DNA of 64,000 nt from Candidatus Dojkabacteria bacterium (GTDB lineage: Bacteria > Patescibacteriota > Dojkabacteria > JAOAGR01), in contig JAOAGR010000004.1 of assembly GCA_026415655.1 (NCBI GenBank), forward strand, positions 134,773-198,772, written 5' to 3'. Below, one piece after another: positions 6,557-32,835 of this stretch. Numbering within the stretch: the stretch's first letter is position 1; each line of letters starts with the position of its first letter. The position numbers were made by a program, and so were the translations under genes. A model generated the notes under the pieces. The model was not told the DNA's origin. It saw only the letters and a list, made by a program, of their open reading frames with translations, and searched no databases.

Positions 6557-6564
6557 GTAATAAA

Positions 6565-8370: not shown

Positions 8371-10480
8371 TGAACATCTAAAACGAGCTGAAGAATTGCT
8401 ACTCGGTGATAAGACTTTTGATGAAAAAGAAAGAATCCCTTTTATAAAGAATCTCACAACATTAGACTTACTGGCAGTCCCTGGGAGCGGAAAAACTACT
8501 GCATTACAAGCTAAATTATATTGCATTGCACAACAAATGCCCTTTGAAGATGGATCAGGAATATTGGTATTGTCTCATACGAATGCAGCAGTAGAAGAAA
8601 TCGAAAAGAATTTAAAAAGTATTTGCCCGCAACTTTTCACATATCCAAATTTTGTTGGAACAGTACAGAGTTTTGTAAATAAATTCCTTGCTAATCAGGC
8701 TTGTTATAGTTGTTTTGGGTCTTATATTAGAATAAATGATAACGATATTTACTACTCGCAGGTTAAAAAGTTTTATAACAAATTGGAATGGAAGAAGCCT
8801 AGTGATAAGGAAAATAAATTAAAAAATCTACTGTATGGTAAAGCAAATCATGGAAGAAGTGGGCTGACAACTGAGCAGAAAAACCAGAATACTATTGATT
8901 TTATTTACAATTTAAAATTTGATTTGTGTAGTCAAAAGATTCTATATGGATCAAAACTAACGACGCTTTACTCAGCTAGCGGAAAAGCTAGGGATAAATA
9001 TGATGAGTTGTTCACTTGGAAAAAAAGTCTTTTTGAGCAAGGTATATTATCTTTTTCGGATTCCTATTACCTTGCAAATTGGTATTTAGTAAACTATCCC
9101 AAAGTAATTGAGTATCTACAGAGTCGATTCACCTATATTTTTGTAGATGAAGCTCAAGATTTAGAAAAGTATCAACTTGATATAATTGATGAGATTTTTT
9201 ACAAAAACGGAAGAGCAATAATTCAAAGAGTTGGAGATATTAATCAAGCTATTTATAATTCCAGCAAAGCTGTAAAAACCCAGTGTGATTGGAAAACTCG
9301 AAATGAGTATTACTTGAAATGTTCACATCGGCTAACAAAAGAAATTGCAGATGTTGTTAATAATTTCACTTTAGACTGTCAACAAGATCAACTTGGAAAT
9401 CCTAAGTTTGAAGTCGATGGACTGAGAATATTGGAAAGCAATATTAAACCTCACTTGATACTATTTGATGATTCATCCAAATCACAGATACAAAATAAAT
9501 TTGATGACTTGATAAAGAGTTTTAAGTTAGAAAAGACAGTAGAGGGACAAAAGTACGGATTTCACATTATCGGATGGAATGGAAGTTGGAAAGAAGAGAA
9601 AAAAGATGAGAATAAGTTAAGGCTGGAAGATATATTCCCTAGCTATAAAAAAGATACAAAAAGCTCAAAGTCCCACTACAACACCTTAAGTGAGTACATT
9701 CAATATTTCAAAAAAGATGCAAAGACACTTGAAAATGCAAAAAATGCAGTTTTGGAATTATTACAACAAGTCTTGTATTTAGAAGGAAAGACAAATACAA
9801 GATCTATCAGAGGTGTAAAAAAAGAGATGAGATACACACAGGTTGAACTTTTGAAATTATTGAAGGAAGACGACGCTATATACGAAGATTTTAAACTAAA
9901 ACTTTACTCATGGTCGTTCTCCATGATGGTTAAGCAGGATTATGAAAAAGTATATCAGGAAATAAAAGCTTTTATTTTAGGTGAATTCAAAACCTGGTTC
10001 AGTTTACAAATTAACGATGAGACTAAATTGCTACTAGAAGATAACTTCAAGCCAGTATTGGTTACTCCATCTGAAGAAACTAAAAGAAAAGATAGGTTTT
10101 CTTTTGAAATAAATACAGTTCATTCCGTAAAAGGCAAGACTCACTGTGCGACAATGTATGTAGAGACGTCGTATCATAGTTACGAAACAGAAAAATTAAA
10201 ATCTCCAAATCCATTATATAAAGAAAAGCATAACTACATAGATCCTAAAGTCAAAAATATTACTAGGGCTATTGAAACGATTAAAATGATGTATGTAGGA
10301 TTTTCCCGACCAACTCACCTATTATGTTTTGCTGTATTAAAAGATAATGTTAAGAATGATCTTAAAAAATATCAAAACGCTGGATGGGAAATCGTAGATC
10401 TGACTGAAACCATATCACTGCAAAAATATCTAAAATTCGATATCCCGGAACCCTCGGAGGTTACACAAGGTACTGTATAA
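8357..10480 (+). CDS. gajB: UvrD/PcrA-like superfamily I helicase; GajB-like partner of the OLD nuclease
   Basis: Walker A is LLAVPGSGKTTAL, motif II is YIFVDEAQD, and a motif V/VI-like segment reads TVHSVKGKTHCATMYVE. It overlaps the 3' end of the OLD-family gene by 14 nt. Confidence 0.7.
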   Translation: MEISDEHLKRAEELLLGDKTFDEKERIPFIKNLTTLDLLAVPGSGKTTALQAKLYCIAQQMPFEDGSGILVLSHTNAAVEEIEKNLKSICPQLFTYPNFVGTVQSFVNKFLANQACYSCFGSYIRINDNDIYYSQVKKFYNKLEWKKPSDKENKLKNLLYGKANHGRSGLTTEQKNQNTIDFIYNLKFDLCSQKILYGSKLTTLYSASGKARDKYDELFTWKKSLFEQGILSFSDSYYLANWYLVNYPKVIEYLQSRFTYIFVDEAQDLEKYQLDIIDEIFYKNGRAIIQRVGDINQAIYNSSKAVKTQCDWKTRNEYYLKCSHRLTKEIADVVNNFTLDCQQDQLGNPKFEVDGLRILESNIKPHLILFDDSSKSQIQNKFDDLIKSFKLEKTVEGQKYGFHIIGWNGSWKEEKKDENKLRLEDIFPSYKKDTKSSKSHYNTLSEYIQYFKKDAKTLENAKNAVLELLQQVLYLEGKTNTRSIRGVKKEMRYTQVELLKLLKEDDAIYEDFKLKLYSWSFSMMVKQDYEKVYQEIKAFILGEFKTWFSLQINDETKLLLEDNFKPVLVTPSEETKRKDRFSFEINTVHSVKGKTHCATMYVETSYHSYETEKLKSPNPLYKEKHNYIDPKVKNITRAIETIKMMYVGFSRPTHLLCFAVLKDNVKNDLKKYQNAGWEIVDLTETISLQKYLKFDIPEPSEVTQGTV

Positions 10481-21688: not shown

Positions 21689-22301
21689 GTTCATCTAAAT
21701 CTTCTTTCCATTTGTTTTTAATAGGATCAAACCATTCAAGCCCACGAAATTGTAATTTATAAAAAGCTTTTTTGTTATGCACGCTTCCAAGGTAAATATA
21801 GTCAATCTCTGTTTTGTGGTATTCCTCTATACATTTTGTCATCATGTACATACCAAAACTAGTTTCCCAAAGTTCTTCAACATAAAAAGGATAAGCATAA
21901 TGTAATAATTTATCAGTTTTCAAACATATACAATAACCATGATTTTCATAATTTAATAATGTGTTAAATAGAAAATTTGTAGGATCTGTGAGTAACTGTT
22001 TGATGATATTGGTACTAAAAGATTCTTCTTTGTGTTTTATTGCATAAAAATCTCTAGCTATTTTGCCAATTTTCCAATCATAATTGTTTAATGGCAGGGA
22101 AATCTCTTCTATTTTGTTATTAAATTTTCGCAGAATTCTTCTATTTTCACTGGTTGGAGAATAATTTCTCAATCTAACGCGTAAACTGATTATTTTTGAT
22201 GCTATACATTTCTTGCGTGTAAGTACGTAACCATTATCATACAACTCATCAAGATCGTGATCTTTTATTTCTATATAACCAAATGATTTGTAGCTTGTCA
22301 T
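21645..22301 (-). CDS. Aminoacyl-tRNA-protein transferase (Ate/Bpt family, N-end rule)
   Basis: The C-terminal segment IDYIYLGSVHNKKAFYKLQFRGLEW matches the Bpt/ATE_C signature (YLYLGY...K..YK..FRPLE). Confidence 0.5.
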   Translation of the reverse strand: MTSYKSFGYIEIKDHDLDELYDNGYVLTRKKCIASKIISLRVRLRNYSPTSENRRILRKFNNKIEEISLPLNNYDWKIGKIARDFYAIKHKEESFSTNIIKQLLTDPTNFLFNTLLNYENHGYCICLKTDKLLHYAYPFYVEELWETSFGMYMMTKCIEEYHKTEIDYIYLGSVHNKKAFYKLQFRGLEWFDPIKNKWKEDLDELKSLVISLEQHSDM

Positions 22302-22425
22302 CGGATTATTTGGATTTTATCAGATTATAATAATTTGATTTATTGTTTCACTAATTTTATGCATTTGAATCTTTCCTATTTAACCAGATTAAATATAGAA
22401 ACAGATTATTGCGAGATTACTAAAG

Positions 22426-22453
22426 TGACCTATGGGTTAACCCATAGGTCACG
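22426..22453. repeat. Perfect 28-bp palindrome GTGACCTATGGGTTAACCCATAGGTCAC
   Basis: I checked the reverse complement directly and it is identical. The core is GGTTAACC. Confidence 0.9.
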
Positions 22454-22755
22454 AATCAATATATATTATTGTTTTATAATACAAAATTGAGATTAACGTA
22501 AATAATGTTATTGATGAATAATGAGCTACTGATAATTTGTAATTAATTGATTAATTCATCGGTAAAATATCTCGACGCTTTCTGTGTTGTGATGTAAAAA
22601 TCAATTTTTCATAAAAGATTATTGATAAACTACAAGACTTGGACAGTATGAATACTTATCTAAAAATATTTATATTTAACCACAGGATGTAGGTTTATTT
22701 AGAGGAATGTGTTAGAGTATATATTAAAGTGCGTATTAGAACTTGTATGATAGAT

Positions 22756-22779
22756 CTATGGGTTAACCCATGGGTCACA
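22756..22779. repeat. Second copy of the same palindrome family (ATCTATGGGTTAACCCATGGGTCAC, one arm mismatch)
   Basis: Direct sequence comparison with the 22426 copy. Confidence 0.85.
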
Positions 22780-22844
22780 TAATCATATTAGGAACTAATA
22801 AGTTAACATATTAGAAAATCATGAGGTAAAACTATTGGCAACCC

Positions 22845-22887
22845 ATATAGCAACCCACATAGCAACCCATAGGTTAACCTATGGGTC
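22845..22887. repeat. Three tandem roughly 12-bp iterons (CAACCCATATAG / CAACCCACATAG / CAACCCATAGG) running into the 20-bp perfect palindrome CCCATAGGTTAACCTATGGG
   Basis: Seen directly. The motif family matches the two upstream palindromes but with arm orientation swapped. It lies about 160 bp upstream of the PLD-SNF2 gene. Confidence 0.85.
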
Positions 22888-23047
22888 TTACTACTCTATA
22901 TATTTATCCTTTTATGATTTACATAATTCCCATTTTGTCTTTTTATAGTGTATTGATATATTTAAGTAGATGTGATTTTTAGCTATATAAGAAACTTATT
23001 TTTATTATAAATTTTATTGTAAAATTGAATATACCAAAATTTATTTT

Positions 23048-26000
23048 ATGGCTATACTTATCAATAAGGATGGAAAAGGTCTTGAGGAACGAATTAATGA
23101 ATTGATTTTACGGTCGGACGAGTTGAGATTTTTGGTTGGATTTTTTTATTTTTCTGGATTTCGAGAGATTTATGAAAGCATCAAGAAAAATTCACAATTA
23201 AGAGAAATAAAGGTACTTGTGGGATTAAATGTTGATGAATATAACAATGTATTAGTGGAATATGGTAAAGATTCTGAGACAATTGGCGATAACCTAAAAA
23301 GACGAGTTCAAAAGACAATTGGTCAGACCACCGAAGAAGTTATAACGGAACTTCTGAATAGCTATCGAAAGACATCTAGGCATGAGGATTGCGATACAAA
23401 AGAATTTTATGAAAGTGCGAAACTTTTTTTGGATCTGTTAAGACAATCAAAATTATTAATAAGAAAAACAAAAGAACCGAATCATTCGAAGTTATATTTG
23501 TTTCATCTAATAAATAATACTCCTCCAAATATTGCTATCTTGGGCAGTAGTAATCTGACTAAATCTGGACTCTCTGAAAATTCGGAATTGAATGTAGAAA
23601 TTAGAGATGATGATTATCTGGAAAAGTTAGTTGAGTATTTTGATGAACAATGGATAAATTCGATAGATCTAAATGGAGATGATACTAAACAGAGAATTAT
23701 TGATGTTATAGAGAATAACTCACCGATAAAATCTATTACTCCGTTTGAGGCTTATATTTATATTTTATACCTTTATTATAAAAACAACTTTGTGCATTCA
23801 GATAAAGATGATGAATTAAATAGTTTTTTAGAAAAGAAAGGATATAAACCATTCAAATTTCAATTAGATGCGGTCAATCAAGCTTGCCAGATATTGAATG
23901 AACATAATGGTGTCATATTGGCTGATGTTGTAGGTCTTGGTAAAAGTATAATTGCCTGTTTGATAGGTAAAAAAATAAAATTAAGGGGTATCGTCATAGC
24001 GCCGCCAGGACTCATCGGTGATATAGAGCTAAAAACATCAGGATGGGCAAAATATCTCAATGATTTTGAATTGTATGACTGGGAGATTTTTTCTGCTGGG
24101 AAGCTGGATCAAGCACTGGAGCGGGTCAAGAGTGAAAACTTTGACATAGTGGTGGTAGATGAAGCTCATCGGTTTAGAAATGAAAATACAGAAAGTTATA
24201 CTTATCTACAGTCTATTTGTAGAGGTAAAAAAGTTGTCTTACTCACTGCGACACCATTCAATAACAACCCGTCAGATGTTTTTTCTTATCTGAAGCTTTT
24301 TACCATACCTAAAAAGTCAACGTTGACCGCGAATGGAGATCTTGAGTCAGAATTTCGAGAGATGGAAGATAAGTATCAAAAATTTACGCGTATTTTGAAG
24401 GGTAAGGATAAAGATAAAGATAAAGATAAAGATAAATCGCTAGAAATTTATAAGAAATTATTTCAAGGGGAGAGATATATAGATAATGAAAAATTGAAAA
24501 ATGAATTAAAAAATATATCAATGCGTATAAAGGGAATAATTCAAAAGGTATTGATACGCAGAAATAGAATAGATCTAAAAAATAATCCCTATTATAAAGA
24601 TGAAATCAAGGAATTACCTGTTGTCCATTCACCAAGAGAATGTTTTTTTACTTTGAATAAGGAATTGGATGGTTTTTATGATGATGTACTAAAAGAATAC
24701 TTCGCGGAAGATGGAGTCTTTAAGGGAGCGGTATATAGACCTGATAGATATAAAAAAAAGTATCAGAGCCAAAAACTTATTGAAAATACGACCAACGATC
24801 CCGTATCAGAGATAGCACCTCAGTATAACCTCTATGACTTTATGCGTAGGTTACTTGTGAAAAGATTTGAAAGTTCACTTTTTGCGTTTTACAGAAGCTT
24901 AGAAAATTTTATTAATTTTTATCAAAAGTGTCTTGATTCTATCAACAAAACAAATAGATTTATCTATAACCGTAGCGTGATCGAAGACATTTTGAGAATG
25001 GATATAGATAGTATTGATGAGACTGAACTTAATGAGCGATTGACAAAGATATTGGAGGAAAATGGCGTAGATAAAGAGGACATATATCCCATTGAAAATA
25101 TGCAGGATAGCTTTATTGACGACATAACTAGTGATATTCGACTTTTGGTAGATGTCAAGGATCGACTGGATAAATTGGCAGTGATGGGGAATAATGATCC
25201 AAAAATTTTCGCCCTAAGAGAAAATCTTGATAAAATTTTGAAGCAAGGGGAAAAAGCAATCATCTTTACTGAGTTTGTGGATACTGTCAAATATCTTGCT
25301 GAGAACTTAAATGGTTATAGGATATTTGCAGTGACTGAGAAACCTACAAGACATATATATCAGCAGATCCTTGAGAATTTTGACGCATCGTATCCAAAAG
25401 ATAGGCAGATAAGTGATTTTGATATATTGATTGTTACGGATCGTTTTTCTGAGGGATACAATCTGAATCGTGCTAATCATGTGTTTAATTTTGACATTCC
25501 GTGGAATCCTGTACGTGTTATACAGAGGTTAGGTAGGATCAACCGTATCGGTACTACGCCATATAAAAATCTTTATATATATAATTTTTTTCCAACAACC
25601 AGAGGTGAAGAACAGATAAATCTAAGAAGAACAGCTGAAACGAAGATGTTTATGATACATCGGTGTTTAGTCGAAGATGCAAAGATCTTTTCGGAAGAAG
25701 AGGAACCTACGCCATCCGAGCTTTATAAGAGATTAAATCAAAACCCGGAGGAGTTGGGTGAAGAAGAGTCATTACTTACTAAAGTATCTAAAATCTTGAA
25801 TAGTCATAAAGATGTACAGAGAAAGGTCGAGGATCTACCGCGTTATATCAAGGTTGCTAAGAAATATACGGAAAATAATCTAGTACTAACTGTACAAAGG
25901 GCAAACGGTCTTTACTTTTTTATCAATAACAAAGAACATCCTGTCTCATTGGATGAGGTAATAAAATATATCGAATGTGATCCGGACGAACCTAGATACG

Positions 26001-26428
26001 AATTATCAAATGATTTTTGGACCAATTATCAAAACCTGAAAGACTCGTACCAGAAGTATGCGCATAATCGGTCAGATAAAAGGGATACTAGCACAAGGGG
26101 GGCATTGTCTGATAAAGAAAGAGCAATAAATGTACTCAGGGAGATAATTTCAAAAAACCCCAACTGGTTAGATGAAGATCTCCGAAATTTTCTGGAAAAT
26201 ATTTTGGAGGATCTGATAGAGTACTCGACACTACCCAAAAGGATTGTAAATAGGATCGCTTCTATTAAGCCAAGTAAATTAGCCCATGACAAAAATGCAA
26301 TGTTAAAGATTTTTGAAGAGATCCGTCGTTTTATCAGTCTGGATTATTTTGCGAATGTGATCGAAAGATCCAAACAGACAAAAAGTGAAATTATAATTTG
26401 TATAGAAAATCAGTACCATGGAGGATAA
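23048..26428 (+). CDS. Fusion protein: N-terminal PLD-family (HKD) nuclease domain plus SNF2-family helicase. It resembles DISARM DrmC and DrmD combined
   Basis: The HKD motif is HSKLYLFHLINNTPPNIAILGSSNLTKSG (HxK...GSxN). SNF2 motif I is ILADVVGLGKSIIA and motif II is VVVDEAHRFRN. The helicase C-terminal domain motif VI reads QRLGRINRIGT. The protein is 1126 aa. An in-frame (GATAAA)n microsatellite encodes KDKDKDKDKDK at 24404-24436. Confidence 0.8.
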   Translation: MAILINKDGKGLEERINELILRSDELRFLVGFFYFSGFREIYESIKKNSQLREIKVLVGLNVDEYNNVLVEYGKDSETIGDNLKRRVQKTIGQTTEEVITELLNSYRKTSRHEDCDTKEFYESAKLFLDLLRQSKLLIRKTKEPNHSKLYLFHLINNTPPNIAILGSSNLTKSGLSENSELNVEIRDDDYLEKLVEYFDEQWINSIDLNGDDTKQRIIDVIENNSPIKSITPFEAYIYILYLYYKNNFVHSDKDDELNSFLEKKGYKPFKFQLDAVNQACQILNEHNGVILADVVGLGKSIIACLIGKKIKLRGIVIAPPGLIGDIELKTSGWAKYLNDFELYDWEIFSAGKLDQALERVKSENFDIVVVDEAHRFRNENTESYTYLQSICRGKKVVLLTATPFNNNPSDVFSYLKLFTIPKKSTLTANGDLESEFREMEDKYQKFTRILKGKDKDKDKDKDKSLEIYKKLFQGERYIDNEKLKNELKNISMRIKGIIQKVLIRRNRIDLKNNPYYKDEIKELPVVHSPRECFFTLNKELDGFYDDVLKEYFAEDGVFKGAVYRPDRYKKKYQSQKLIENTTNDPVSEIAPQYNLYDFMRRLLVKRFESSLFAFYRSLENFINFYQKCLDSINKTNRFIYNRSVIEDILRMDIDSIDETELNERLTKILEENGVDKEDIYPIENMQDSFIDDITSDIRLLVDVKDRLDKLAVMGNNDPKIFALRENLDKILKQGEKAIIFTEFVDTVKYLAENLNGYRIFAVTEKPTRHIYQQILENFDASYPKDRQISDFDILIVTDRFSEGYNLNRANHVFNFDIPWNPVRVIQRLGRINRIGTTPYKNLYIYNFFPTTRGEEQINLRRTAETKMFMIHRCLVEDAKIFSEEEEPTPSELYKRLNQNPEELGEEESLLTKVSKILNSHKDVQRKVEDLPRYIKVAKKYTENNLVLTVQRANGLYFFINNKEHPVSLDEVIKYIECDPDEPRYELSNDFWTNYQNLKDSYQKYAHNRSDKRDTSTRGALSDKERAINVLREIISKNPNWLDEDLRNFLENILEDLIEYSTLPKRIVNRIASIKPSKLAHDKNAMLKIFEEIRRFISLDYFANVIERSKQTKSEIIICIENQYHGG

Positions 26429-27122
26429 AAACCAACAAATATTAGAAAATTTTATACATGCTAAGAGTTTTTATGATATTTCCAGGTCATTTATTGATTT
26501 TATTACTGGGAAGACTTCTAATTTTGTTGATTGTAAAAATGAAATAGAAGTATTTGGATATAAGGTCTATCAAATAGGATCAATAGAAGTGGGCAGAAAT
26601 GAGTATATACCGATATTTATTATTGAATTAAGAGAACTAAGCGAAAGAACATCAAGAAAACATCAGTTTGAATTGGGAAAAACAATATTGCGTGGAGAAT
26701 ACTTGTATATAGCTGGTATATTTATATTTTATGATAAAAACGGCAATAAAAGAATAAGTTATATAGAAAAGATATATAAAGATGGTAAGGAACTTTATAC
26801 AACATTTAAGAGATATACCTTCTTCATAAGTGAAAGCCAGACTAATAAAACCTTTCTAAGGCAATTTGCCAGTGGTGATTTTACTAAACAAAAAAGTATA
26901 AGGGAAATCTTTAGTGTAGAAAAAGTAACAAAACAATTTTATCAAGAGATTTCAAGCTGGTATTTTTGGGCACTGAGTCATGTGCGTTTTACAGATGATG
27001 CAGAGAATGAAAAAAATGGCCGCGAGATAGGGATCATTCGTTTTATAACTAGAATAATCTTTGTTTGGTTCATGCGTGAAAAAGGCCTTGTACCAAAGGA
27101 TTTATTTGATTTTAACAAGTAG
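26418..27122 (+). CDS. N-terminal segment of a PglX/DrmMI/MmeI-family adenine methyltransferase, ended by an in-frame TAG
   Basis: It ends in ...IIRFITRIIFVWFMREKGLVPKDLFDFNK*. The downstream ORF is in the same frame and continues the conserved N-terminal region (QNVLKTLDDNESTYYRAILQNLFFATLNTP). The start overlaps the stop of the PLD-SNF2 gene. Confidence 0.6.
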   Translation: MEDKNQQILENFIHAKSFYDISRSFIDFITGKTSNFVDCKNEIEVFGYKVYQIGSIEVGRNEYIPIFIIELRELSERTSRKHQFELGKTILRGEYLYIAGIFIFYDKNGNKRISYIEKIYKDGKELYTTFKRYTFFISESQTNKTFLRQFASGDFTKQKSIREIFSVEKVTKQFYQEISSWYFWALSHVRFTDDAENEKNGREIGIIRFITRIIFVWFMREKGLVPKDLFDFNK

Positions 27123-27140
27123 CAAAATGTATTAAAGACA

Positions 27141-30100
27141 TTGGACGACAATGAAAGTACTTATTATAGGGCTATTTTGCAAAATCTATTTTTTGCGACA
27201 CTAAATACACCTATATCTGAAAGAAAGTTTAGAAAAGAGGAAAGTTTTCATGGGGTAAACGAGCATTACATGAATCATACGTATTTTAGATTTCATGATT
27301 ATTTCAAAAATCCTGATGATATGTTGAACCTGTTTGGGAATATACCTTTTTTGAACGGTGGACTTTTTGAGTGCCTGGATAAAAGGGCAGATGATCCTGA
27401 TAATTACACAGGCAAAGAGATAAGAATAGATGGCTTTTCTGATGTCAAAAGTAAGCAGGTGACATTTCCTAATATTTTGTTCTTTTCTGATGAGGTGACG
27501 GTAGGTCTTGATGAGTTTTTTCCGGATTCGAAAGATAAAAAGAGATATAACGGTGTAAAAATACGAGGACTGATCAATATATTATCTTCATACAAATTTA
27601 CTATTGATGAGAATACTTTGAATGATGAAGAGGTGGCATTGGATCCTGAGCTTTTGGGAAATATCTTTGAGAACCTACTTGCGGCTTATAACCCTGAGAC
27701 TGCTGCAACAGCTCGCAAGGCTACAGGTAGTTATTATACGCCACGAGTTATTGTAGACTACATGGTTACAGAATCTCTGAAAGAATATCTTACCACGCAA
27801 TTTTCTCAACATTATGGGATAGATCAAATGGAAGATTTTAAAGAGAAATTAGAAACACTATTTTCAAGTGAGCATGAAGAAAATCCATTTGATGAGGGAA
27901 TAACCGATTTTTTAATACAAAAAATCAACAAGATAAAAATCATAGATCCTGCCGTGGGTTCCGGAGCTTTTCCGATGGGTATGTTGCACAAGCTGGTTTT
28001 TTTACTGAGTAAATTGGACCCCCATAATGAAAGATGGAAAAGAGAACAGATAGCAATAGTTGAGAAAATAACAGACCCTAAACTAAGACAGAAAATTATT
28101 CAAAAGATTGAGGAGAATTTTCAGCATAATGAACTCGACTATGGGCGAAAATTATATCTAATACAGAATTGCCTTTATGGCGTGGACATTCAGCCCATTG
28201 CTATTCAGATTGCTAAGCTGAGATTTTTTATTTCGTTACTGGTGGATGAAAAATCAAATAACAATAAAGATGAAAACTTTGGCATAGAACCCCTGCCAAA
28301 TCTGGAAACTAAATTGGTAGCGGCTAATACTTTGGTTGCATTACCACAGGAACCCTATCAATGTCTTAAAATGGACGAAATAATTCGTTTAGAAAAAGAT
28401 TTGTTTGAGGTGAGAAATAGTTATTTTACTGCTAATACTCAGAAAGAAAAAAGTAAAATCCAAAAAGAGGATAGAGAGATACGAAATAAATTGAAAAAAC
28501 TCATTGAGGACTATGTGAGCGATAACAAAAACGAATTAAATAAATTGCAAAATGAATTGGAGCAATTACCTGTAAGACTAGAATATGTAGAAGAACGTAC
28601 GCTATTGGAAACTAAAAAAGTCAAAAAAGATGTAAATGAGGAAAAAAGAAACGCACTGATGAATAAAATTAGGGATTTAGAAAACAAAATAAAGGCTGAT
28701 GAGATACTTTTGGAAAGATATAGAAAAGTTGCTGAATACAATATTTTTAATCCTCATATCTCGGAGGTTTGGTTTGATCCTGAGTGGATGTTTGGGGTTG
28801 AGGTAGGTGATGACAAGATTGTTAACAAAGATAAAGATGTATTTGCTTACCATATTACATGGTCAACACATAATAGTAGACGAAAAGAAGATTATGAGCC
28901 GTCAAATACCGAAGGTTATGCACCGGTTTTGTTAAGTTGTGAGGAAAGAAAATATGTTACTAAAATATTAGCCCAAAGAATAGTAAATAAACGATATCGA
29001 GTGCTAGCTCTAAATGTATTAGATGACCATGTACATTTGTTACTAGTTTGTGGGGAAAATGAAATTACAAAAATAGTTGGAGACTTGAAAGGATTTAGTT
29101 CGTATGCCATGTCTCATCTCAACGCAGACGAGGTGCAGAATAGAGAGATGAATTATGGGATCAAAATGACTCAAGGGTTAACTCTTAAGTCATTATCTAA
29201 ATCTGAACGAAAACAAGATTTCGTGACTCTGACTCGTGGGGTAACTTCAGAGTCAATACACGCAACTCCCAAGTCACTAAATGTAATTCCTGAGTCGATA
29301 TGTAATTCCAAATCTGGCGAGTATATTGGGACTGTGACTGAGGGGTTAACCTCAGAGTCAATACACGCGACTCCCAAGTCGCTAAATATAATTCCTGAGT
29401 CGATATGTAATTCCAAATCTGGCGAGTGTATTGGGACTGTGACTGAGGGGTTAACCCCTCAGTCAACAAGCCAATCTTCTCAGTCAACAAGCCAATCTCC
29501 TCAGTCAACAAGCCAATCTCCCCAGTCAACAAGCCAATCTCCTCAGTCAACAAACCAATCTCCTCAGTCAATAAACCAACCTCTCCAGTCAATAAACCAA
29601 TCTCCTTATTCAACAAACCAACCTTCTCAGTCATTAGATCCAACACCTCAGTCATCAGATCTGAATCCTCATTCTAATCGGATATCAATTAATCATTCAT
29701 TTGAAGCTGAAGATATGTACTGTTCAAGTATGCCAGCATACAATGATGGTACAATTTCCAAACTTTGGGCACGTAAATTTGGAAAGGCATTAATTCGTAG
29801 TGAGAAGCATATTGTCAATGCTATCGAATATATCCAAAACAATCATTTGAAGCATAATTTGCCTGAAGTTGATCCTGCGTTATATGAATATGCTCTTACT
29901 TCTTTTGATGATGCATTTAAGAATTTTGTTGTTTCGAAAGGATTTGATATTGTGATTGGAAATCCTCCGTATGTGCAATTACAAAAGGCTTATGACAGCA
30001 GAAATAAATATGCTGATCTCTACAAGAATCAAAATTTTGAAACTTTTGATAGAACCGGAGATTTGTATTGTTTGTTTTATGAAAAAGGAATCCAACTACT

Positions 30101-31142
30101 AAGACAATCAGGCCTCTTGTGTTATATCACTTCGAATAAATGGATGCGTGCAGGATATGGTGAAAAGTTAAGAAATTTCTTTACACAGTATAATCCAAGA
30201 ATTTTGATAGACCTGGGACCTAATGTTTTTGAAAATGCAACGGTTGATACAAATATTTTAATCATCCGAAAAGAACAAAACAAGAATGAGCTTAAAGCAG
30301 TAACAATTAGTGAATCAAAAAAAGATGGGATTGATTTTGCCGATATTTTACAAAAACAAGGCGTTACCGTAACTAAATTAAAACAAGATGCCTGGTTTAT
30401 AGGCAGTGATGCAGAACAAAGCCTGAAAGAAAAAATAGAACGCATCGGCAAACCACTAAAAGATTGGGATGTAAAAATTTATCGTGGAATATTAACTGGC
30501 TTAAACGAAGCCTTTATCATTGACAGTAAAAAGCGAGAAGAGATTCTTGCCAATTGTAGAGATGAAGATGAACGCCGACGCACCGAAGCTATCATAAAAC
30601 CAATTTTGCGTGGCAGGGACATCAAACGGTATTACTACGAGTGGGCGGGGCTGTGGGTGATAATTGCAAAATTTGGCTTCTACAAAGAAGCTCATTTATA
30701 CCCTGCTATAATCAATCATTTATCAAAATACGAGACTCAATTAAAACAAAGAGGGCAATGTCAATATACAAGACAAGGAGCAAAACTAAAAAATCCCGAC
30801 TTTCTCGGACAACATCATTGGCTTGAATTAGATAATAACCCACAAGATTCTTATTTAACTGAGTTTGAGAAGGAGAAGGTGGTGGGGCAAAGAATAACAC
30901 AAGAACCTACGTTTTGTTTAGTTGAACCAAATATCTTAATTCTTGATAGTATGGCATTTTTTACGGGTGAAAATTTAATGTATATTATGGCTATTCTTAA
31001 TTCAAAACTGATTTATAATTATGTAGAAATGATAGTTCATCAGTATGGTTATACAGGTTTTAGATTATCAAATCAGTATGTTGAAATGATGCCCCTTCCC
31101 CCCCATCACTCCATCCAATCAGTCCATAGTAAATCAGATTGA
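27141..31142 (+). CDS. Gamma-class N6-adenine DNA methyltransferase of the PglX/DrmMI/MmeI (Eco57I-like) family, carrying a roughly 570-aa in-frame insertion. The true C-terminus continues to 31305 after a C7 frameshift
   Basis: The NGGLFE motif is present. Motif X is ATGSYYTPRVIVDYMV and motif I is IIDPAVGSGAFPMGML, followed by YGVDIQPIAIQIAKLRF. About 670 aa later comes motif IV, FDIVIGNPPYVQ, then motifs V-VIII (DLYCLFYEKG...LLCYITSNKWM...FENATVDTNILIIRK). The family C-terminal tail IDELVYKLYELTDEEIRQVEERI is encoded at 31144-31305, in the +1 frame past a C7 run at 31098-31104. Confidence 0.8.
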   Translation: MDDNESTYYRAILQNLFFATLNTPISERKFRKEESFHGVNEHYMNHTYFRFHDYFKNPDDMLNLFGNIPFLNGGLFECLDKRADDPDNYTGKEIRIDGFSDVKSKQVTFPNILFFSDEVTVGLDEFFPDSKDKKRYNGVKIRGLINILSSYKFTIDENTLNDEEVALDPELLGNIFENLLAAYNPETAATARKATGSYYTPRVIVDYMVTESLKEYLTTQFSQHYGIDQMEDFKEKLETLFSSEHEENPFDEGITDFLIQKINKIKIIDPAVGSGAFPMGMLHKLVFLLSKLDPHNERWKREQIAIVEKITDPKLRQKIIQKIEENFQHNELDYGRKLYLIQNCLYGVDIQPIAIQIAKLRFFISLLVDEKSNNNKDENFGIEPLPNLETKLVAANTLVALPQEPYQCLKMDEIIRLEKDLFEVRNSYFTANTQKEKSKIQKEDREIRNKLKKLIEDYVSDNKNELNKLQNELEQLPVRLEYVEERTLLETKKVKKDVNEEKRNALMNKIRDLENKIKADEILLERYRKVAEYNIFNPHISEVWFDPEWMFGVEVGDDKIVNKDKDVFAYHITWSTHNSRRKEDYEPSNTEGYAPVLLSCEERKYVTKILAQRIVNKRYRVLALNVLDDHVHLLLVCGENEITKIVGDLKGFSSYAMSHLNADEVQNREMNYGIKMTQGLTLKSLSKSERKQDFVTLTRGVTSESIHATPKSLNVIPESICNSKSGEYIGTVTEGLTSESIHATPKSLNIIPESICNSKSGECIGTVTEGLTPQSTSQSSQSTSQSPQSTSQSPQSTSQSPQSTNQSPQSINQPLQSINQSPYSTNQPSQSLDPTPQSSDLNPHSNRISINHSFEAEDMYCSSMPAYNDGTISKLWARKFGKALIRSEKHIVNAIEYIQNNHLKHNLPEVDPALYEYALTSFDDAFKNFVVSKGFDIVIGNPPYVQLQKAYDSRNKYADLYKNQNFETFDRTGDLYCLFYEKGIQLLRQSGLLCYITSNKWMRAGYGEKLRNFFTQYNPRILIDLGPNVFENATVDTNILIIRKEQNKNELKAVTISESKKDGIDFADILQKQGVTVTKLKQDAWFIGSDAEQSLKEKIERIGKPLKDWDVKIYRGILTGLNEAFIIDSKKREEILANCRDEDERRRTEAIIKPILRGRDIKRYYYEWAGLWVIIAKFGFYKEAHLYPAIINHLSKYETQLKQRGQCQYTRQGAKLKNPDFLGQHHWLELDNNPQDSYLTEFEKEKVVGQRITQEPTFCLVEPNILILDSMAFFTGENLMYIMAILNSKLIYNYVEMIVHQYGYTGFRLSNQYVEMMPLPPHHSIQSVHSKSD
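29223..29438. repeat. Two tandem roughly 105/111-bp direct repeats inside the methyltransferase ORF, each starting with a GGGGTTAAC(C) palindromic element
   Basis: The unit encodes TLTRGVTSESIHATPKSLNVIPESICNSKSGEYIGTV twice. A perfect 24-bp palindrome GACTGAGGGGTTAACCCCTCAGTC sits at 29438-29461, and an imperfect copy is at 29169-29190. Confidence 0.85.
29460..29669. repeat. About 10 tandem 21-bp repeats (CAGTCAACAAGCCAATCTCCT and variants) encoding (P)QSTSQS heptads
   Basis: Seen directly. The repeat is in frame (21 nt = 7 codons) and produces long spurious ORFs on the opposite strand. Confidence 0.85.
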
Positions 31143-31386
31143 GCAATTAGTGGATAAAATCCTTGAAGCAAAACGTAGTGATAAAAACGCAGATACAAGT
31201 CATTGGGAGCATAAGATCGATGAATTGGTGTATAAGTTGTATGAATTAACAGATGAGGAAATAAGGCAGGTAGAGGAGAGAATAGACAAAAATAGAGTTA
31301 ATTAGGTATAAGCGGTTTTTATCTGTTAGACATTTATCGTAATATCAAGTTATAAATTTCTCAGGATTTGATGATTTTTATATTGG

Positions 31387-32835
31387 CTATGCTGCCCTTC
31401 TCATTGCTGCTTTTATACCTTTTCTCAGTTCATGATTATATTCTAGTCTCTGACAAGACAAGGTTATTTGGGATATTAGATGATCTATATCTGCATCTTT
31501 TATATTCTCTCCGTCTTTTATTTTCTTTAATATGTCGGGTGGTATATTTACGGTAACAAGTATCGGTACAGTACTTCCTCTAAGAGTACGTAAAAACTCT
31601 CTGTTTTCTAATAAAGTTCTTAATCTTGTTTTAGGTCTTGTTGTTTGGGTATTGGTTTCATCTTTTGAAACTTCAGAAAATATATTCCTTATAGAACTTC
31701 TGCGGTTTGGGTCCGTTTCTTGAGTATTATTATCTTTACTTTTTGATGAGATGTTACTAGCGGTTTGATTATCTTGATTTTTTAACGAAATGCTGTCAGC
31801 GGTCTGATTATCCTTAGTTTCTGATGAAACGTTATCAGCGGTTGTAACAGGACCGTTCGAATCAGAGATTTTATTATCTTTGCTTTCTGATGAACTTTTA
31901 CCTTTTTCTGTTTGAATAACAAAAAATTCAAACACTGCAAAAAGAGTGTGTGCTATATCTCGTATGTCTTCTTGATCAATTTCTATACTTCCATAATTGG
32001 GATTATCAACATTAGGCGCATCTAAAGTATTTTCTTGATCTTTAGGTGGCGTTTGATTGTTCTTTTCATCATATTTTGTTTTTATTTCAATTACAGTTAA
32101 TTTGACTTTGCTTTTTGCCATCAAATCAAATAGTCTTAATATATCTGAATCAATTCCTGCGGCTGATAGGATATTTTTTCGTATTTTTTTACTCAATTCT
32201 AAGATAAACTCTTTCGTTTCTTCATCTTTTGTGTCATAAGAAAAACCTATCAAGTCAGCTCTTGTGGTCAGAGCGGCTATTGCCCTATGTGTAGGTATTC
32301 CTGTATCTGTTTTTGCATTATCATTGTCATTTGGTACATGTGTAAATGGAAAATATAATCCTATTAATTGAATTAGTTCATCATATTGTTTTTGTATATC
32401 TGGATTTTCCAATTCTATTTTATTTACTTGTTGTCCTGTACCAATTTGTTCAAGGTGTTGCAGTATTTTGCGATAATTGGTAGATACACTTTTTATATAT
32501 TTCTTGACTTTTTCTTCTATACTGTGGTCAATCATCAGTGAAAGTTCATGTAACCAGATCGTTGTAGTTTCTGATTCTTCTTGTGCATCATTTGCTAATC
32601 CTGGTTCGGAATCGGGTCCTACTTGTCTTGATGGATCCTTTATTCTTGGGACCATCTCTGTAGTTGTATTGTAGATTTCGGCGGCTAGTTTTCGTAATCT
32701 ATCTAAAACTTTTTCTGATAATTTTGATTGTGTAGATCTAATATGTTCGATGAAATGGGGACAGGTTGAGAAATTTTTGTTTCCAACTTCATGATCTCCG
32801 TTTTGTATAAATTCGTGTTGTATAATACGTCCCAC
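31387..32835 (-). CDS. Hypothetical protein, 482 aa, with an internal low-complexity Ser/Asp/Asn/Thr/Lys-rich tract. It is convergent with the methyltransferase
   Basis: Long ORF in an AT-rich genome. The repeated SKDN(Q)TA(D/S)SIS-like segment is visible, and I recognise no catalytic motif. Confidence 0.5.
   Translation of the reverse strand: MGRIIQHEFIQNGDHEVGNKNFSTCPHFIEHIRSTQSKLSEKVLDRLRKLAAEIYNTTTEMVPRIKDPSRQVGPDSEPGLANDAQEESETTTIWLHELSLMIDHSIEEKVKKYIKSVSTNYRKILQHLEQIGTGQQVNKIELENPDIQKQYDELIQLIGLYFPFTHVPNDNDNAKTDTGIPTHRAIAALTTRADLIGFSYDTKDEETKEFILELSKKIRKNILSAAGIDSDILRLFDLMAKSKVKLTVIEIKTKYDEKNNQTPPKDQENTLDAPNVDNPNYGSIEIDQEDIRDIAHTLFAVFEFFVIQTEKGKSSSESKDNKISDSNGPVTTADNVSSETKDNQTADSISLKNQDNQTASNISSKSKDNNTQETDPNRRSSIRNIFSEVSKDETNTQTTRPKTRLRTLLENREFLRTLRGSTVPILVTVNIPPDILKKIKDGENIKDADIDHLISQITLSCQRLEYNHELRKGIKAAMRRAA

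What the first reader, a model, noticed from the sequence alone, without database searches (positions are those of the whole stretch)
28740..29880. Domesticated IS200/RAYT-like HUH domain, with its catalytic Tyr apparently replaced by Phe, inserted in frame inside the catalytic domain of the methyltransferase
In gamma-class methyltransferases motif I and motif IV (NPPY) are normally about 100 aa apart. Here they are about 670 aa apart. The extra segment stays open for about 1.7 kb in a roughly 30% GC genome, which is extremely unlikely without selection. It encodes a coiled-coil stretch and then an IS200/IS605 TnpA-like fold: YHITW...RR, the HuH motif DDHVHLLL, and KGFSSYA. After a repeat-rich spacer the C-terminal RAYT-like helix follows, LWARKFGKALIRSEKHIVNAIEYIQNNHLKH. 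This aligns residue by residue with the RAYT sequence LWQRSYWDRIVRDEQEYLNIREYIINNPLKW, but F replaces the nucleophilic Y. A likely non-catalytic ssDNA-hairpin-binding HUH module grafted into a defence methyltransferase is, as far as I know, undescribed.
Basis: partly seen in the sequence, partly recalled or inferred. Interest (0 to 1): 0.85.

Follow-up and report, generated by a model that had tools for sequence, protein, structure and literature searches.

The report
HUH nuclease nested inside restriction methyltransferase

Summary
Window 28800-29939 (ORF aa 554-933) is a whole Y1 HUH nuclease inserted in frame 8 residues before motif IV (NPPY) of an Eco57I/Type IIG-like adenine methyltransferase. 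Pfam Y1_Tnp scores above its gathering cut-off. AlphaFold builds the fold from the two halves, and Foldseek's top 29 PDB hits are all IS200/IS605 TnpA structures.

The "Tyr replaced by Phe" claim is wrong. The nucleophile is Y897 in AIEYIQNNHLKH, which aligns with ISDra2 Y132 and E. coli RAYT Y115. F880 is a variable position where Phe is the commonest residue. So the domain looks catalytically competent.

The "repeat-rich spacer" is a run of in-frame REP-like palindromes (core GGGTTAACCC) and their tandem duplications, in the loop between the HuH and Tyr motifs. Three more copies lie upstream of the operon.

The architecture is not unique. About 40% of the closest representative clusters of this HUH subfamily are embedded at the same spot in Type IIG methyltransferases. 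Hairpin-encoded peptides are about 90-fold enriched in those genes.

In this genome the host gene carries an in-frame TAG and a poly-C frameshift.

Best reading: a RAYT-like module nested in a restriction-modification gene. Its role for the enzyme is unknown. No paper in the searchable library describes it.

The parts
22425..22452 (.). Intergenic REP-like perfect palindrome GTGACCTATGGGTTAACCCATAGGTCAC, upstream of the operon
   Evidence: As ssDNA it folds at -12.9 kcal/mol, z = -8.3. It shares the GTGAC...GGGTTAACCC...GTCAC frame with the in-gene copies.
22756..22773 (.). Second intergenic copy, CTATGGGTTAACCCATGG
22843..22886 (.). Third intergenic copy, ACCCATAGGTTAACCTATGGGT, preceded by tandem duplicates of its 5' arm (GCAACCCAYATA repeated)
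   Evidence: The arm GCAACCCA also occurs in the L001 in-gene palindrome.
23048..26428 (+). Partner gene: PLD (HKD) nuclease + SNF2 helicase, 1126 aa, intact
   Evidence: Pfam PLDc_2, SNF2-rel_dom, Helicase_C. PADLOC 'HKD+Snf2'. The same gene pair is present in L001-L004, L063 and L064.
26418..27122 (+). First 234 codons of the methyltransferase gene, cut off by an in-frame TAG at 27120-27122
   Evidence: Same frame as the 1333-aa ORF. Homologous to the N-termini of P0002, P0005 and P0012. TAG is an ordinary stop in this window, used by 5 of 28 long ORFs.
27141..28799 (+). Methyltransferase N-half, with motif I DPAVGSGAF at 27945-27971 and a native helical / coiled-coil spacer. It ends in WFDPEWMFGV.
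28800..29150 (+). HUH core, strands and helices b1-aA-b2-b3-aC. HuH motif H630-V-H632 at 29028-29036.
   Evidence: Pfam Y1_Tnp. AF2 pLDDT 91-98. Foldseek matches TnpA structures. The His residues are invariant or nearly so in the family.
29151..29720 (+). Expanded aC-b4 linker, about 190 aa and predicted disordered. It holds four in-frame GTTAAC-centred palindromes (29165-29194, 29225-29255, 29335-29360, 29440-29465), a 105-bp x 2.2 repeat and a 21-bp x 8.4 repeat. The 21-bp unit re-copies the 3' arm CTCAGTCA.
   Evidence: The family median for this stretch is about 44 aa against 245 here.
29721..29939 (+). Strand b4 (KLWARKF), helix aD with nucleophile Y897 (29829-29831) and metal ligands N901 and H905, plus the family-specific C-terminal extension (...DDAFKNFVVSK).
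29940..31142 (+). Methyltransferase C-half: GFDIVIGNPPY (NPPY at 29961-29972), motifs V-VIII and the TaqI_C target-recognition domain. A +1 frameshift lies in the C7 run 31099-31105.
31090..31305 (+). Out-of-frame remainder of the gene: the conserved C-terminal helix (PPITPSNQSIVNQIEQLVDKIL...)
   Evidence: It is 70% identical to the P0012 C-terminus.

Best explanation
WHAT IT IS
Window 28800-29939 is a complete Y1 HUH single-strand-DNA nuclease of the IS200/RAYT superfamily, and its catalytic residues are intact. It belongs to a distinct subfamily with the motifs ITWxTHNSR, DHVH, LW and Y-x3-N-x3-H. It is nested in frame at the junction between the N-terminal and C-terminal modules of a Type IIG-like N6-adenine methyltransferase, with its nucleophilic Tyr 44 residues before NPPY. 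That methyltransferase works with a PLD-SNF2 partner.

This is one instance of a widespread, inherited architecture, not a one-off graft.

SHOWN
- The fold.
- The intact catalytic residues.
- The exact insertion boundaries.
- Recurrence at the same site in many Type IIG genes.
- Co-inheritance with the methyltransferase N-half.
- A specific association with short GC-stemmed palindromes, which sit in frame in the HUH linker, elsewhere in the host gene, or flank the gene.

INFERRED MECHANISM
- Like RAYT/TnpA-REP enzymes, the module binds its cognate hairpin when the DNA is single-stranded.
- Y897 nicks and rejoins next to the hairpin, using a metal held by H630, H632, N901 and H905.
- This seeds new hairpin copies and arm duplications preferentially in cis, which would explain the four copies in its own linker and the three upstream of the operon.
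- Only in-frame copies in permissive loops survive, because the carrier is a restriction-modification gene.
- The methyltransferase tolerates the module because it sits in the surface linker at the point where the N- and C-halves of this enzyme family are in any case recombined.

NOT ESTABLISHED
Whether the module gives the enzyme any benefit.

STATE IN THIS GENOME
The carrier gene has a nonsense codon and a frameshift. The methyltransferase is therefore probably decaying, phase-off or mis-assembled, while the HUH reading frame is still intact.
For: IDENTITY
- Pfam Y1_Tnp 27 / 31.4 / 41.6 bits against a cut-off of 23.
- A family profile hits ISDra2 TnpA at E = 1.4e-9, aligned through the Tyr helix.
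- The AF2 core has pLDDT 91-98. Foldseek's top 29 hits are all TnpA structures, probability 1.0, TM 0.5-0.56.

CATALYTIC RESIDUES
- Invariant D, H, K, W, Y, N, K and H in 17 sequences.
- HHYNH pattern in 61/63 embedded and 93/98 stand-alone domains.
- Y897 corresponds to ISDra2 Y132 and RAYT Y115.

BOUNDARIES
- The insert spans exactly a stand-alone protein of the family, from K-A-Y-H-I-T-W to A-F-x-P-I.

RECURRENCE
- An hmmsearch of 1.84e9 representative proteins found 188 clusters at E <= 1e-30.
- 66 of the 170 closest sequences are 400 aa or longer. Of these, 48 have motif I before the HUH and 55 have NPPY after it. The median Tyr-to-NPPY distance is 46 aa, range 42-114.
- The carriers fall in at least three PADLOC Type IIG profiles, including MmeI-like enzymes.

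INHERITANCE
- HUH identity correlates with methyltransferase N-half identity (Spearman 0.44, Mantel p = 0.001).
- The window, P0012 and P0103 form one HUH clade.

HAIRPINS IN THE WINDOW
- 6 of the 14 GTTAAC sites in the window centre long palindromes, against 0.55 expected. All six lie in the linker or just upstream of the operon.
- The palindrome arms co-vary: CTAT/ATAG versus TGAG/CTCA.

HAIRPINS IN RELATED LOCI
- The L001 linker holds TGCAACCCACGGGTTAACCCGTGGGTTGCA. The L002 linker holds the same stem.
- In L060, the nearest stand-alone relative is flanked by CTGAGGGTTnnnAACCCTCAG hairpins.
- In L065, identical hairpins flank the whole restriction-modification gene.
- In L072, nine hairpins lie inside the gene and none in the other 10 kb. 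Each is a peptide insertion that homologues lack.
- The hairpin-encoded peptide KG[LFI][KQN]P[LI] occurs at 0.92 per 1000 aa in HUH-bearing methyltransferases, 0.89 in stand-alone HUH proteins and 0.01 in 233 HUH-less homologues.
- As ssDNA the hairpins fold at -5 to -17 kcal/mol.

PRECEDENT
Against: - No biochemical activity is shown. Cleavage, hairpin binding and cis-spreading are all inferred.
- NCBIfam equivalog cut-offs are not reached for RAYT (55.8 against 80) or for IS200 TnpA (37.9 against 55). Behaviour cannot simply be transferred from either family.
- Outside the locus, no dispersed copies of the window's palindrome were found in the 64-kb window. The rest of the genome could not be read, and the genome and metagenome scans were uninformative. 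A REP family in the usual multi-copy sense is therefore not demonstrated for this genome.
- L002 (P0103) has the linker stem but no other copies within 20 kb.
- The HUH-less controls for the peptide enrichment come from the window's own methyltransferase family, whereas most embedded examples are MmeI-like.
- The strict placement at a single site in a single enzyme class, with conserved catalytic residues, could equally mean that the module has a host function.
- Palindromes in double-stranded DNA could also be binding sites for a dimeric protein rather than ssDNA hairpins.
Confidence: 0.6

Rival explanations
1. The HUH module is a domesticated, non-catalytic ssDNA-hairpin-binding domain that lost its nucleophilic Tyr (Y to F). 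It serves the methyltransferase only as a DNA-binding appendage.
For: - The domain is nested in a defence methyltransferase and has hairpins nearby.
- F880 does sit where some homologues have Y.
Against: - F880 is not the nucleophile position. The invariant Y897 aligns with ISDra2 Y132 and RAYT Y115.
- At the F880 column, F is the commonest residue in the family: 80 F, 69 Y, 10 S.
- HuH, Y, N and H are all present in the window, and in 61/63 embedded domains.
Confidence: 0.06
2. The nested HUH is the transposase of a mobile restriction-modification unit. The hairpins are the ends (or REP-type handles) of an IS200-like ssDNA element whose cargo is the Type IIG gene that carries the transposase inside it. 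The RM gene therefore spreads as a selfish unit.
For: - In L065, identical hairpins in opposite orientation bracket the whole solitary MmeI-like gene, at 541-560 and 4574-4593, with a third at 4709-4728.
- HUH-bearing RM genes sit alone among housekeeping genes.
- The same CAAGGG...CCCTTG hairpin type is found with this HUH in genomes of 30-51% GC.
- The NJ tree shows many switches of context.
Against: - In the window, hairpins lie only upstream of the operon and inside the linker, and none lies downstream.
- L002 has none flanking the gene.
- HUH identity tracks the methyltransferase N-half but not the C-half. That fits vertical descent with recombination better than movement of whole genes.
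- No empty or filled site pairs were found.
- Copy number is one per locus.
Confidence: 0.14
3. The HUH module has been recruited for the defence function itself. For example it might tether or target the RM enzyme to single-stranded or hairpin DNA (replication forks, incoming conjugative or phage ssDNA), or add an ssDNA-nicking effector. The hairpins would be by-products or regulatory sites.
For: - About 40% of the closest clusters of the subfamily are embedded, always in Type IIG methyltransferases and always 42-114 aa before NPPY.
- Catalytic residues are conserved in embedded copies, although those copies lack element ends at the insert boundaries.
- The module is co-inherited with the N-half.
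Against: - Thousands of close methyltransferase homologues work without it.
- Stand-alone family members sit among housekeeping genes with no defence context.
- Other RAYT types with their REPs are nested at two other sites of the same methyltransferase family, in L063 and L064. This looks like opportunistic nesting rather than one designed function.
- In this genome the methyltransferase is broken while the HUH frame persists.
Confidence: 0.17
4. Artefact. The segment is an assembly chimera, or a chance open frame across an inserted IS200 element that in fact disrupts the gene.
For: - The source is a MAG.
- The gene has a nonsense codon and a homopolymer frameshift, which could be assembly errors.
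Against: - The same in-frame architecture occurs in dozens of independent assemblies. P0103 is identical on 24 or more contigs.
- The insert has no IS ends, no start codon and no stop codon, and it matches the coding limits of stand-alone homologues.
- My own estimate from the window's roughly 33% GC base composition: 380 codons stay open by chance with p of about 1e-13.
Confidence: 0.01

Closest known systems
RAYT / TnpA-REP (REP-associated tyrosine transposases; E. coli YafM, PDB 4ER8) and REPtrons
   Same: - HUH fold.
- HuH motif, with the nucleophilic Tyr on helix aD and the Y-x3-N-x3-H metal ligands (PMC3479197).
- Best NCBIfam match.
- Single copy.
- Cognate GC-stemmed palindromes next to, and inside, the gene.
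   Different: - Below the NCBIfam cut-off (55.8 against 80).
- Lacks the class-2 'Y---NP' signature; it has N-H or N-R instead.
- It is not a free-standing gene. It is translated as an internal domain of a restriction-modification methyltransferase.
- In some loci the hairpins flank or fill the host RM gene rather than a RAYT gene.
In-frame REP insertions inside tnpA-REP genes (subclass 2.4 of Quentin et al. 2018, PMC6006769)
   Same: [quoted passage not shown] This is exactly what the window's 'repeat-rich spacer' is.
   Different: - A different HUH subclass. The window has DHVH and YIxNN[HR]xKH, whereas subclass 2.4 has NH[IFV]H and YIxNNP.
- The insertion here is in the aC-b4 loop.
- Here the hairpins also invade the carrier methyltransferase (L072).
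Quentin subclass 1.2 Y1 proteins (DH[IV]H, YIKNQKEHH, conserved C-terminal tail, non-IS, Bacteroidetes and Cyanobacteria)
   Same: - DHVH motif.
- YIxN-x-x-x-(K/H)H-type Tyr helix.
- A conserved roughly 30-aa C-terminal tail.
- Low copy number and no IS features.
   Different: - N instead of Q at Y+4.
- Subclass 1.2 was reported without REPs, whereas this family has them.
- That study discarded long proteins as 'gene fusions or annotation errors'.
IS200/IS605 TnpA (ISDra2 2XM3/2XO6, IS608)
   Same: Closest solved structures and best PDB sequence hits. The Tyr aligns with Y132.
   Different: - No Y---Q motif.
- No LE/RE subterminal hairpins at the insert boundaries.
- No tnpB.
- Not multicopy.
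- NCBIfam 37.9 against a cut-off of 55.
Eco57I/MmeI-type Type IIG restriction-modification methyltransferases (here the split form, with a PLD-SNF2 partner)
   Same: - Motif I, NPPY, Eco57I and TaqI_C domains.
- PADLOC REase_MTase_IIG at 453 bits.
- Gene pair conserved in homologues.
   Different: - Carries a 380-aa foreign nuclease module before motif IV.
- In this genome the ORF is interrupted twice.
Inteins and other nested selfish elements in conserved motifs
   Same: An in-frame foreign nuclease gene nested next to the most conserved catalytic motif of a host enzyme, with the host reading frame preserved.
   Different: - No splicing junction residues: the junctions read MFGV|EVGD and VVSK|GFDI.
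- No Hint domain.
- The module stays in the mature protein. This is read directly from the sequence.

Membership tests
Y1 HUH nucleases (Pfam PF01797 Y1_Tnp) | Profile score at or above the gathering threshold | tested here: met
Y1 HUH nucleases (Pfam PF01797 Y1_Tnp) | His-hydrophobic-His motif on strand b3 | tested here: met
   H630-V-H632 at 29028-29036. Conserved in the family.
Y1 HUH nucleases (Pfam PF01797 Y1_Tnp) | Single nucleophilic Tyr on the C-terminal helix aD | tested here: met
   Y897 (29829-29831) aligns with ISDra2 Y132, which is F in the Y132F mutant 2XO6. It is invariant in 17/17 sequences and present in 154/161 complete domains.
Y1 HUH nucleases (Pfam PF01797 Y1_Tnp) | The b-a-b-b-a-b-a TnpA fold | tested here: met
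   AF2 model. Foldseek top 29 PDB hits are all TnpA structures.
Y1 HUH nucleases (Pfam PF01797 Y1_Tnp) | ssDNA cleavage with a covalent 5'-phosphotyrosine intermediate | not testable with these tools
   Needs biochemistry.
RAYT / TnpA-REP (NCBIfam NF047646; class 2 of Quentin et al.) | Equivalog score at or above the cut-off | tested here: not met
   45 to 55.8 bits against a cut-off of 80. Stand-alone relatives score 41.6-60.6.
RAYT / TnpA-REP (NCBIfam NF047646; class 2 of Quentin et al.) | Y-x3-N-P signature, with N and H of helix aD as metal ligands | tested here: inconclusive
   The Y897-x3-N901-x3-H905 spacing matches Y115/N119/H123. The Pro after the Asn is absent; the window has N-H.
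RAYT / TnpA-REP (NCBIfam NF047646; class 2 of Quentin et al.) | Association with cognate REP hairpins near the gene (REPtron) | tested here: met
   - Window: 4 in-linker copies plus 3 upstream copies.
- Also seen in L060, L065, L066, L072, L073 and L001.
- About 90-fold peptide enrichment over HUH-less homologues.
- Genome-wide REP copy number was not testable.
IS200/IS605 transposase (NCBIfam NF033573) | Equivalog score; Y---Q motif | tested here: not met
   30.5 to 37.9 bits against a cut-off of 55. N rather than Q at Y+4.
IS200/IS605 transposase (NCBIfam NF033573) | Element with LE/RE subterminal hairpins at its ends, often with tnpB, and multicopy | tested here: not met
   The insert boundaries coincide with the coding limits of stand-alone homologues, with no room for element ends. 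There is no second HUH or tnpB-like hit in the window.
Gamma-class N6-adenine methyltransferase, Eco57I / Type IIG-like | Motif I (FxGxG-type), motif IV (NPPY) and TaqI_C-type target-recognition domain | tested here: met
Gamma-class N6-adenine methyltransferase, Eco57I / Type IIG-like | Uninterrupted full-length reading frame | tested here: not met
   In-frame TAG at 27120-27122 and a +1 frameshift in the C7 run 31099-31105.
BREX PglX / DISARM DrmMI | NCBIfam equivalog score | tested here: not met
   PglX scores 72 against a cut-off of 500. The partner's DrmD score is 127 against 610.
Intein | Cys/Ser/Thr at the N-junction, His-Asn + Cys/Ser/Thr at the C-junction, Hint domain | tested here: not met
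   The junctions read GV|EVGD and VSK|GFD. No Hint or intein Pfam hit.

The most novel reading that the evidence does not exclude
The nested HUH is the built-in transposase of a new kind of selfish restriction-modification element. A Type IIG gene carries an IS200/RAYT-like Y1 nuclease inside its own reading frame. It is bounded or peppered by that nuclease's cognate hairpins, so the RM gene itself (or its modules) can be mobilised or rearranged through single-stranded DNA. A variant of this reading: the module gives the enzyme an ssDNA or hairpin-directed activity that is used in defence.
Probability: 0.2. Interest if true: 0.85.

Novelty: new variant of a known kind. Interest (0 to 1): 0.68.

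Why it matters
RAYT-type HUH nucleases and their REP hairpins are abundant, but what they do for the cell is still unclear. Restriction-modification genes are classic selfish or defensive modules.

This finding shows that a whole, apparently active HUH nuclease is repeatedly carried inside the reading frame of Type IIG methyltransferases. It sits at the junction where the enzyme's halves are exchanged. Its hairpins accumulate in frame within the carrier gene.

If the module is active, three things follow:
- It gives a tractable system for RAYT-REP biochemistry: one polypeptide, with its cognate hairpins encoded in its own gene.
- It shows a route by which REP-like sequences remodel protein-coding genes.
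- It suggests a possible link between ssDNA transposition machinery and the mobility or diversification of restriction systems.

For annotation, such proteins should not be dismissed as fusion errors. The nucleophile should be read from the YIxNN motif, not from the LWxxxY strand.

Tried and rejected
1. HUH-driven shuffling of methyltransferase halves. HUH identity tracks the N-half (r = 0.44) and not the C-half (r about 0). However, HUH-less homologues selected on the N-half alone show the same decoupling: r = -0.09, and median C-half identity is 0.25 when N-half identity is 0.6 or more. Shuffling is therefore a general property of the family and not evidence for an HUH role.

2. Silent C-half cassettes near the gene. 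tblastn found none. The only other hit is the hsdM gene of a separate Type I system.

3. Genome-wide REP census. An exact scan of genome contigs for CTATGGGTTAACCCAT gave 54 scattered single hits at chance level, and the source genome is not in that collection. A metagenome scan for GTGACnnnnGGGTTAACCCnnnnGTCA gave 5 unrelated short contigs with no HUH gene.

4. Plasmid or phage carriage. tblastn of the domain found nothing in either collection.

5. RNA element, IStron or intron. No Rfam match at E <= 0.1 in 22000-32000.

6. TAG recoding as an explanation for the in-frame stop. Rejected, because TAG ends 5 of 28 long ORFs in the window.

7. Intein. No junction residues and no Hint domain.

8. 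A single-sequence phmmer search against the PDB was uninformative. A family profile was needed.

9. The antisense ORFs 29171-29416 and 29197-29655 are by-products of the palindromic and tandem repeats.

10. Literature. Six full-text searches found no description of an HUH/RAYT domain inside an RM methyltransferase. JGI's automatic names already read 'methylase subunit / REP element-mobilizing transposase RayT' for some members.

11. A second structure prediction, of the whole carrier protein, was not run. Too few sequences carry both parts in the same arrangement to trust the inter-domain geometry.

Full report
WHAT IS THERE

The window comes from a low-GC (about 30-35%) genome. The 1333-aa product of 27141-31142 is identical to an NCBI protein from a Candidatus Dojkabacteria MAG. 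Pfam finds Eco57I (123 bits), N6_Mtase, TaqI_C and, at aa 601-660, Y1_Tnp (27 bits against a cut-off of 23). PADLOC calls it a Type IIG restriction enzyme-methyltransferase (453 bits) and calls the upstream 1126-aa gene 'HKD+Snf2'. The same two-gene cassette, a PLD-SNF2 helicase followed by the methyltransferase, recurs in every related locus fetched.

BOUNDARIES OF THE INSERT

Insertion-free homologues at 59-70% identity read WFDPEWMFGV-TG-GFDIVIGNPPY at this point. The window reads WFDPEWMFGV-[380 aa]-GFDIVIGNPPY. The insert is therefore aa 554-933, which is 28800-29939.

The coiled-coil stretch upstream is shared with P0002 and is native methyltransferase sequence. The motif I to motif IV distance in 105 HUH-less relatives is 220-320 aa, not about 100.

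The insert corresponds end to end with free-standing 140-190-aa proteins of the same family, at 30-41% identity. This includes the N-terminal K-A-Y-H-I-T-W motif and a C-terminal tail ending in A-F-x-P-I. It is a whole gene's worth of protein, without a start codon, a stop codon or element ends.

IS IT AN HUH NUCLEASE, AND IS IT DEAD?

With the repeat linker removed, Pfam Y1_Tnp rises to 41.6 bits over profile positions 23-121 of 121. NCBIfam prefers REP_Tyr_transpos (55.8 bits, cut-off 80) over IS200 (37.9 bits, cut-off 55). It is therefore neither a canonical RAYT nor an IS200 transposase.

A 17-sequence family profile hits ISDra2 TnpA at E = 1.4e-9. It aligns the family's invariant Tyr with the residue that is Y in 2XM3 and F in the Y132F mutant 2XO6.

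Messing et al. (PMC3479197) give Y115 as the nucleophile for E. coli TnpA-REP, with H59, H61, N119 and H123 as metal ligands. The window has H630, H632, Y897, N901 and H905 in the same spacing.

Across 158 family members that column reads F 80, Y 69, S 10, H 2. The 'Y to F' inference is therefore a mis-assignment of the nucleophile.

The HHYNH pattern is intact in 61/63 complete embedded domains and in 93/98 stand-alone domains.

AlphaFold2, run with a 41-sequence alignment, builds b1-aA-b2-b3-aC and b4-aD into one domain at pLDDT 91-98 and leaves residues 120-310 disordered. Foldseek's 29 best PDB hits are all IS200/IS605 TnpA structures.

THE 'REPEAT-RICH SPACER'

The linker between helix aC and strand b4 spans about 44 aa in most family members but 245 aa here. 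It contains:
- four palindromes of the form TGACTGAG-GGGTTAACCC-CTCAGTCA, at 29165-94, 29225-55, 29335-60 and 29440-65;
- a 105-bp x 2.2 repeat;
- a 21-bp x 8.4 repeat, whose unit starts with the palindrome's 3' arm.

Of the 14 GTTAAC sites in the 64-kb window, six centre long palindromes, against 0.55 expected from shuffles. Three are in this linker. The other three lie in the 750-bp non-coding stretch just upstream of the helicase gene, at 22425-52, 22756-73 and 22865-86. The last of these also carries tandem arm duplications.

The intergenic and in-gene copies share GTGAC...GGGTTAACCC...GTCA(C) and differ by paired changes in the arms (CTAT/ATAG versus TGAG/CTCA). As ssDNA they fold at -5 to -13 kcal/mol.

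The homologous linker of P0012 (L001) holds a perfect 30-nt palindrome with the same centre, TGCAACCCAC-GGGTTAACCC-GTGGGTTGCA. The P0103 linker (L002) holds the same stem around a 20-nt loop.

The nearest stand-alone relative (P0130, L060) is flanked by CTGAGGGTTnnnAACCCTCAG hairpins. One lies in its 5' coding extension, one lies 17 nt after its stop codon, and degenerate copies lie upstream. That is the REPtron arrangement.

Quentin et al. [quoted passage not shown]

HOW GENERAL IS THE NESTED ARCHITECTURE?

An exhaustive profile search of 1.84 billion representative proteins found 188 clusters at E <= 1e-30. Of the 170 closest sequences, 66 are 400 aa or longer. Among those 66:
- 48 have motif I before the HUH;
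- 55 have NPPY after it;
- 44 have both, and the remainder are contig-truncated;
- the distance from the catalytic Tyr to NPPY has a median of 46 aa and a range of 42-114; it is 44 in the window.

The carriers belong to at least three PADLOC Type IIG profiles and include single-chain MmeI-like enzymes. Some are already auto-named by JGI as 'methylase subunit / REP element-mobilizing transposase RayT'.

Stand-alone members are real single genes among housekeeping genes. A few short 'stand-alone' entries (P0124, P0126) still carry methyltransferase junction remnants. This shows that decay of a carrier gene can leave a free HUH ORF.

A rough NJ tree of 158 domains needs 27 switches between embedded and stand-alone states, against about 49 for shuffled labels.

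Among carriers, HUH identity correlates with the methyltransferase N-half (Spearman 0.44, Mantel p = 0.001) but not with the C-half. HUH-less relatives show the same N/C decoupling. The module therefore simply sits at the family's natural recombination joint and is inherited with the N-half.

HAIRPINS FOLLOW THE HUH

- L065: three identical CAAGGGGCTnnAGCCCCTTG hairpins bracket the whole MmeI-like gene.
- L066 and L073: related palindromes lie inside the HUH part of the gene.
- L072: nine copies lie inside the 3.6-kb gene and none in the other 10 kb. Each encodes an NKGLQPL-type peptide that homologues lack at that position.
- The hairpin-encoded peptide KG[LFI][KQN]P[LI] occurs in 41% of HUH-bearing methyltransferases (0.92 per 1000 aa) and in 16% of stand-alone HUH proteins (0.89 per 1000 aa). 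It occurs in 1% of 233 HUH-less methyltransferase homologues (0.01 per 1000 aa).
- Linker peptides such as GHAP, GACP and GGMPP fit, by back-translation (I did not read the DNA of those genes), three reading frames of one GGGGCATGCCCC-type palindrome. This suggests the conserved object is DNA rather than peptide.

Separately, canonical subclass-2.4-like RAYTs with their own flanking hairpins are nested in frame at two other positions of the window's methyltransferase family (P0044/L063 and P0063/L064). In L001, two copies of such a RAYT flank the operon.

STATE OF THE GENE IN THIS GENOME

An in-frame TAG at 27120-27122 separates the first 234 codons from the rest of the gene. TAG is a normal stop in this window. 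One extra C in a C7 tract (31099-31105) moves the conserved C-terminal helix into the +1 frame, at 31090-31305. The helicase partner and the HUH frame are intact. These lesions could be a real pseudogene, phase variation at the homopolymer, or assembly errors. This cannot be decided here.

INTERPRETATION

Shown:
- a complete Y1 HUH module with all catalytic residues, nested in frame at one defined site of Type IIG methyltransferases;
- the arrangement is widespread and inherited with the N-half;
- it is accompanied by cognate palindromes in and around the carrier gene.

Inferred: the module behaves like a RAYT. It binds its hairpin on ssDNA and nicks and rejoins through Y897. This seeds hairpin copies and arm duplications in cis, and only in-frame copies in permissive loops survive.

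I hold this at about 0.6 overall. Identity and architecture are near-certain. Activity and cis-spreading are plausible but untested. Whether the module serves the enzyme or mobilises the RM gene remains open.

NOVELTY

RAYTs, REPtrons and in-frame REP insertions are known. I could find no paper describing an HUH/RAYT module translated as an internal domain of restriction-modification methyltransferases, nor REP-like hairpins filling the carrier gene. The 2018 survey explicitly discarded long proteins as fusions or errors. I therefore rate it a new variant of a known kind.

Noticed in passing
window 27120-27122 and 31099-31105 (continuation 31090-31305): The methyltransferase gene is interrupted twice. 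An in-frame TAG follows codon 234. One extra C in a C7 homopolymer throws the conserved C-terminal helix out of frame. The cause could be a pseudogene, homopolymer phase variation or an assembly error. The HUH module and the helicase partner remain intact.
   Followed up: partly
window 22425-22452, 22756-22773, 22843-22886: Three GGGTTAACCC / GGTTAACC-centred palindromes lie in the AT-rich non-coding stretch upstream of the PLD-SNF2 gene. The third is preceded by tandem copies of its own 5' arm (GCAACCCAYATA). They belong to the same hairpin family as the in-gene copies.
   Followed up: yes
window 677-10480: A second defence cluster. It comprises a Type I RM system (hsdR 677-3760, hsdM 3757-5382, hsdS 5375-6556) followed by a Gabija-like pair (OLD-family ATPase/TOPRIM 6565-8370 and UvrD-type helicase 8357-10480).
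   Followed up: partly
L072 5001-8627 (P0187): One MmeI-like Type IIG gene carries nine in-frame copies of the hairpin CAAGGGGCTnnAGCCCCTTG. Each adds an NKGLQPL / NKGLKPL-type peptide that homologues lack. There are none in the 10 kb of flanking DNA.
   Followed up: yes
L065 541-560, 4574-4593, 4709-4728 (P0145 gene 779-4567): Identical 20-nt hairpins, with the loop inverted in the middle copy, bracket an entire solitary HUH-bearing RM gene that sits among housekeeping genes. This is a REPtron-like or transposon-like layout.
   Followed up: partly
L063 6376-6435 and 7052-7134 (P0044); L064 7512-8777 (P0063): A different, canonical RAYT (NHVH, YIRNNP) together with its flanking hairpin pairs is nested in frame at two other positions of the same methyltransferase family: before motif I, and between the methyltransferase core and the target-recognition domain.
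   Followed up: partly
L001 1-302 and 10135-10731: The PLD-SNF2 + methyltransferase operon of P0012 is flanked by two copies (one truncated) of a subclass-2.4-like RAYT. Each carries the in-gene palindrome GTAGAGGCACGTTGCAACGTGCCTCTA.
   Followed up: partly
L059 4575-6507 and L060 6001-7872: Two stand-alone members of the HUH subfamily (P0125 and P0130) both lie next to a seryl-tRNA synthetase gene in unrelated contigs.
   Followed up: no
window 29171-29416 and 29197-29655, minus strand: Antisense ORFs of 81 and 152 aa across the linker. They are side-effects of the palindromic and tandem repeats, not genes.
   Followed up: partly
P0124, P0126, P0225: Short HUH ORFs that still carry methyltransferase junction remnants (an N-terminal FDPEFRFG, or a decayed GFDIVFGNLH). 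They show carrier genes decaying around a surviving HUH frame.
   Followed up: partly
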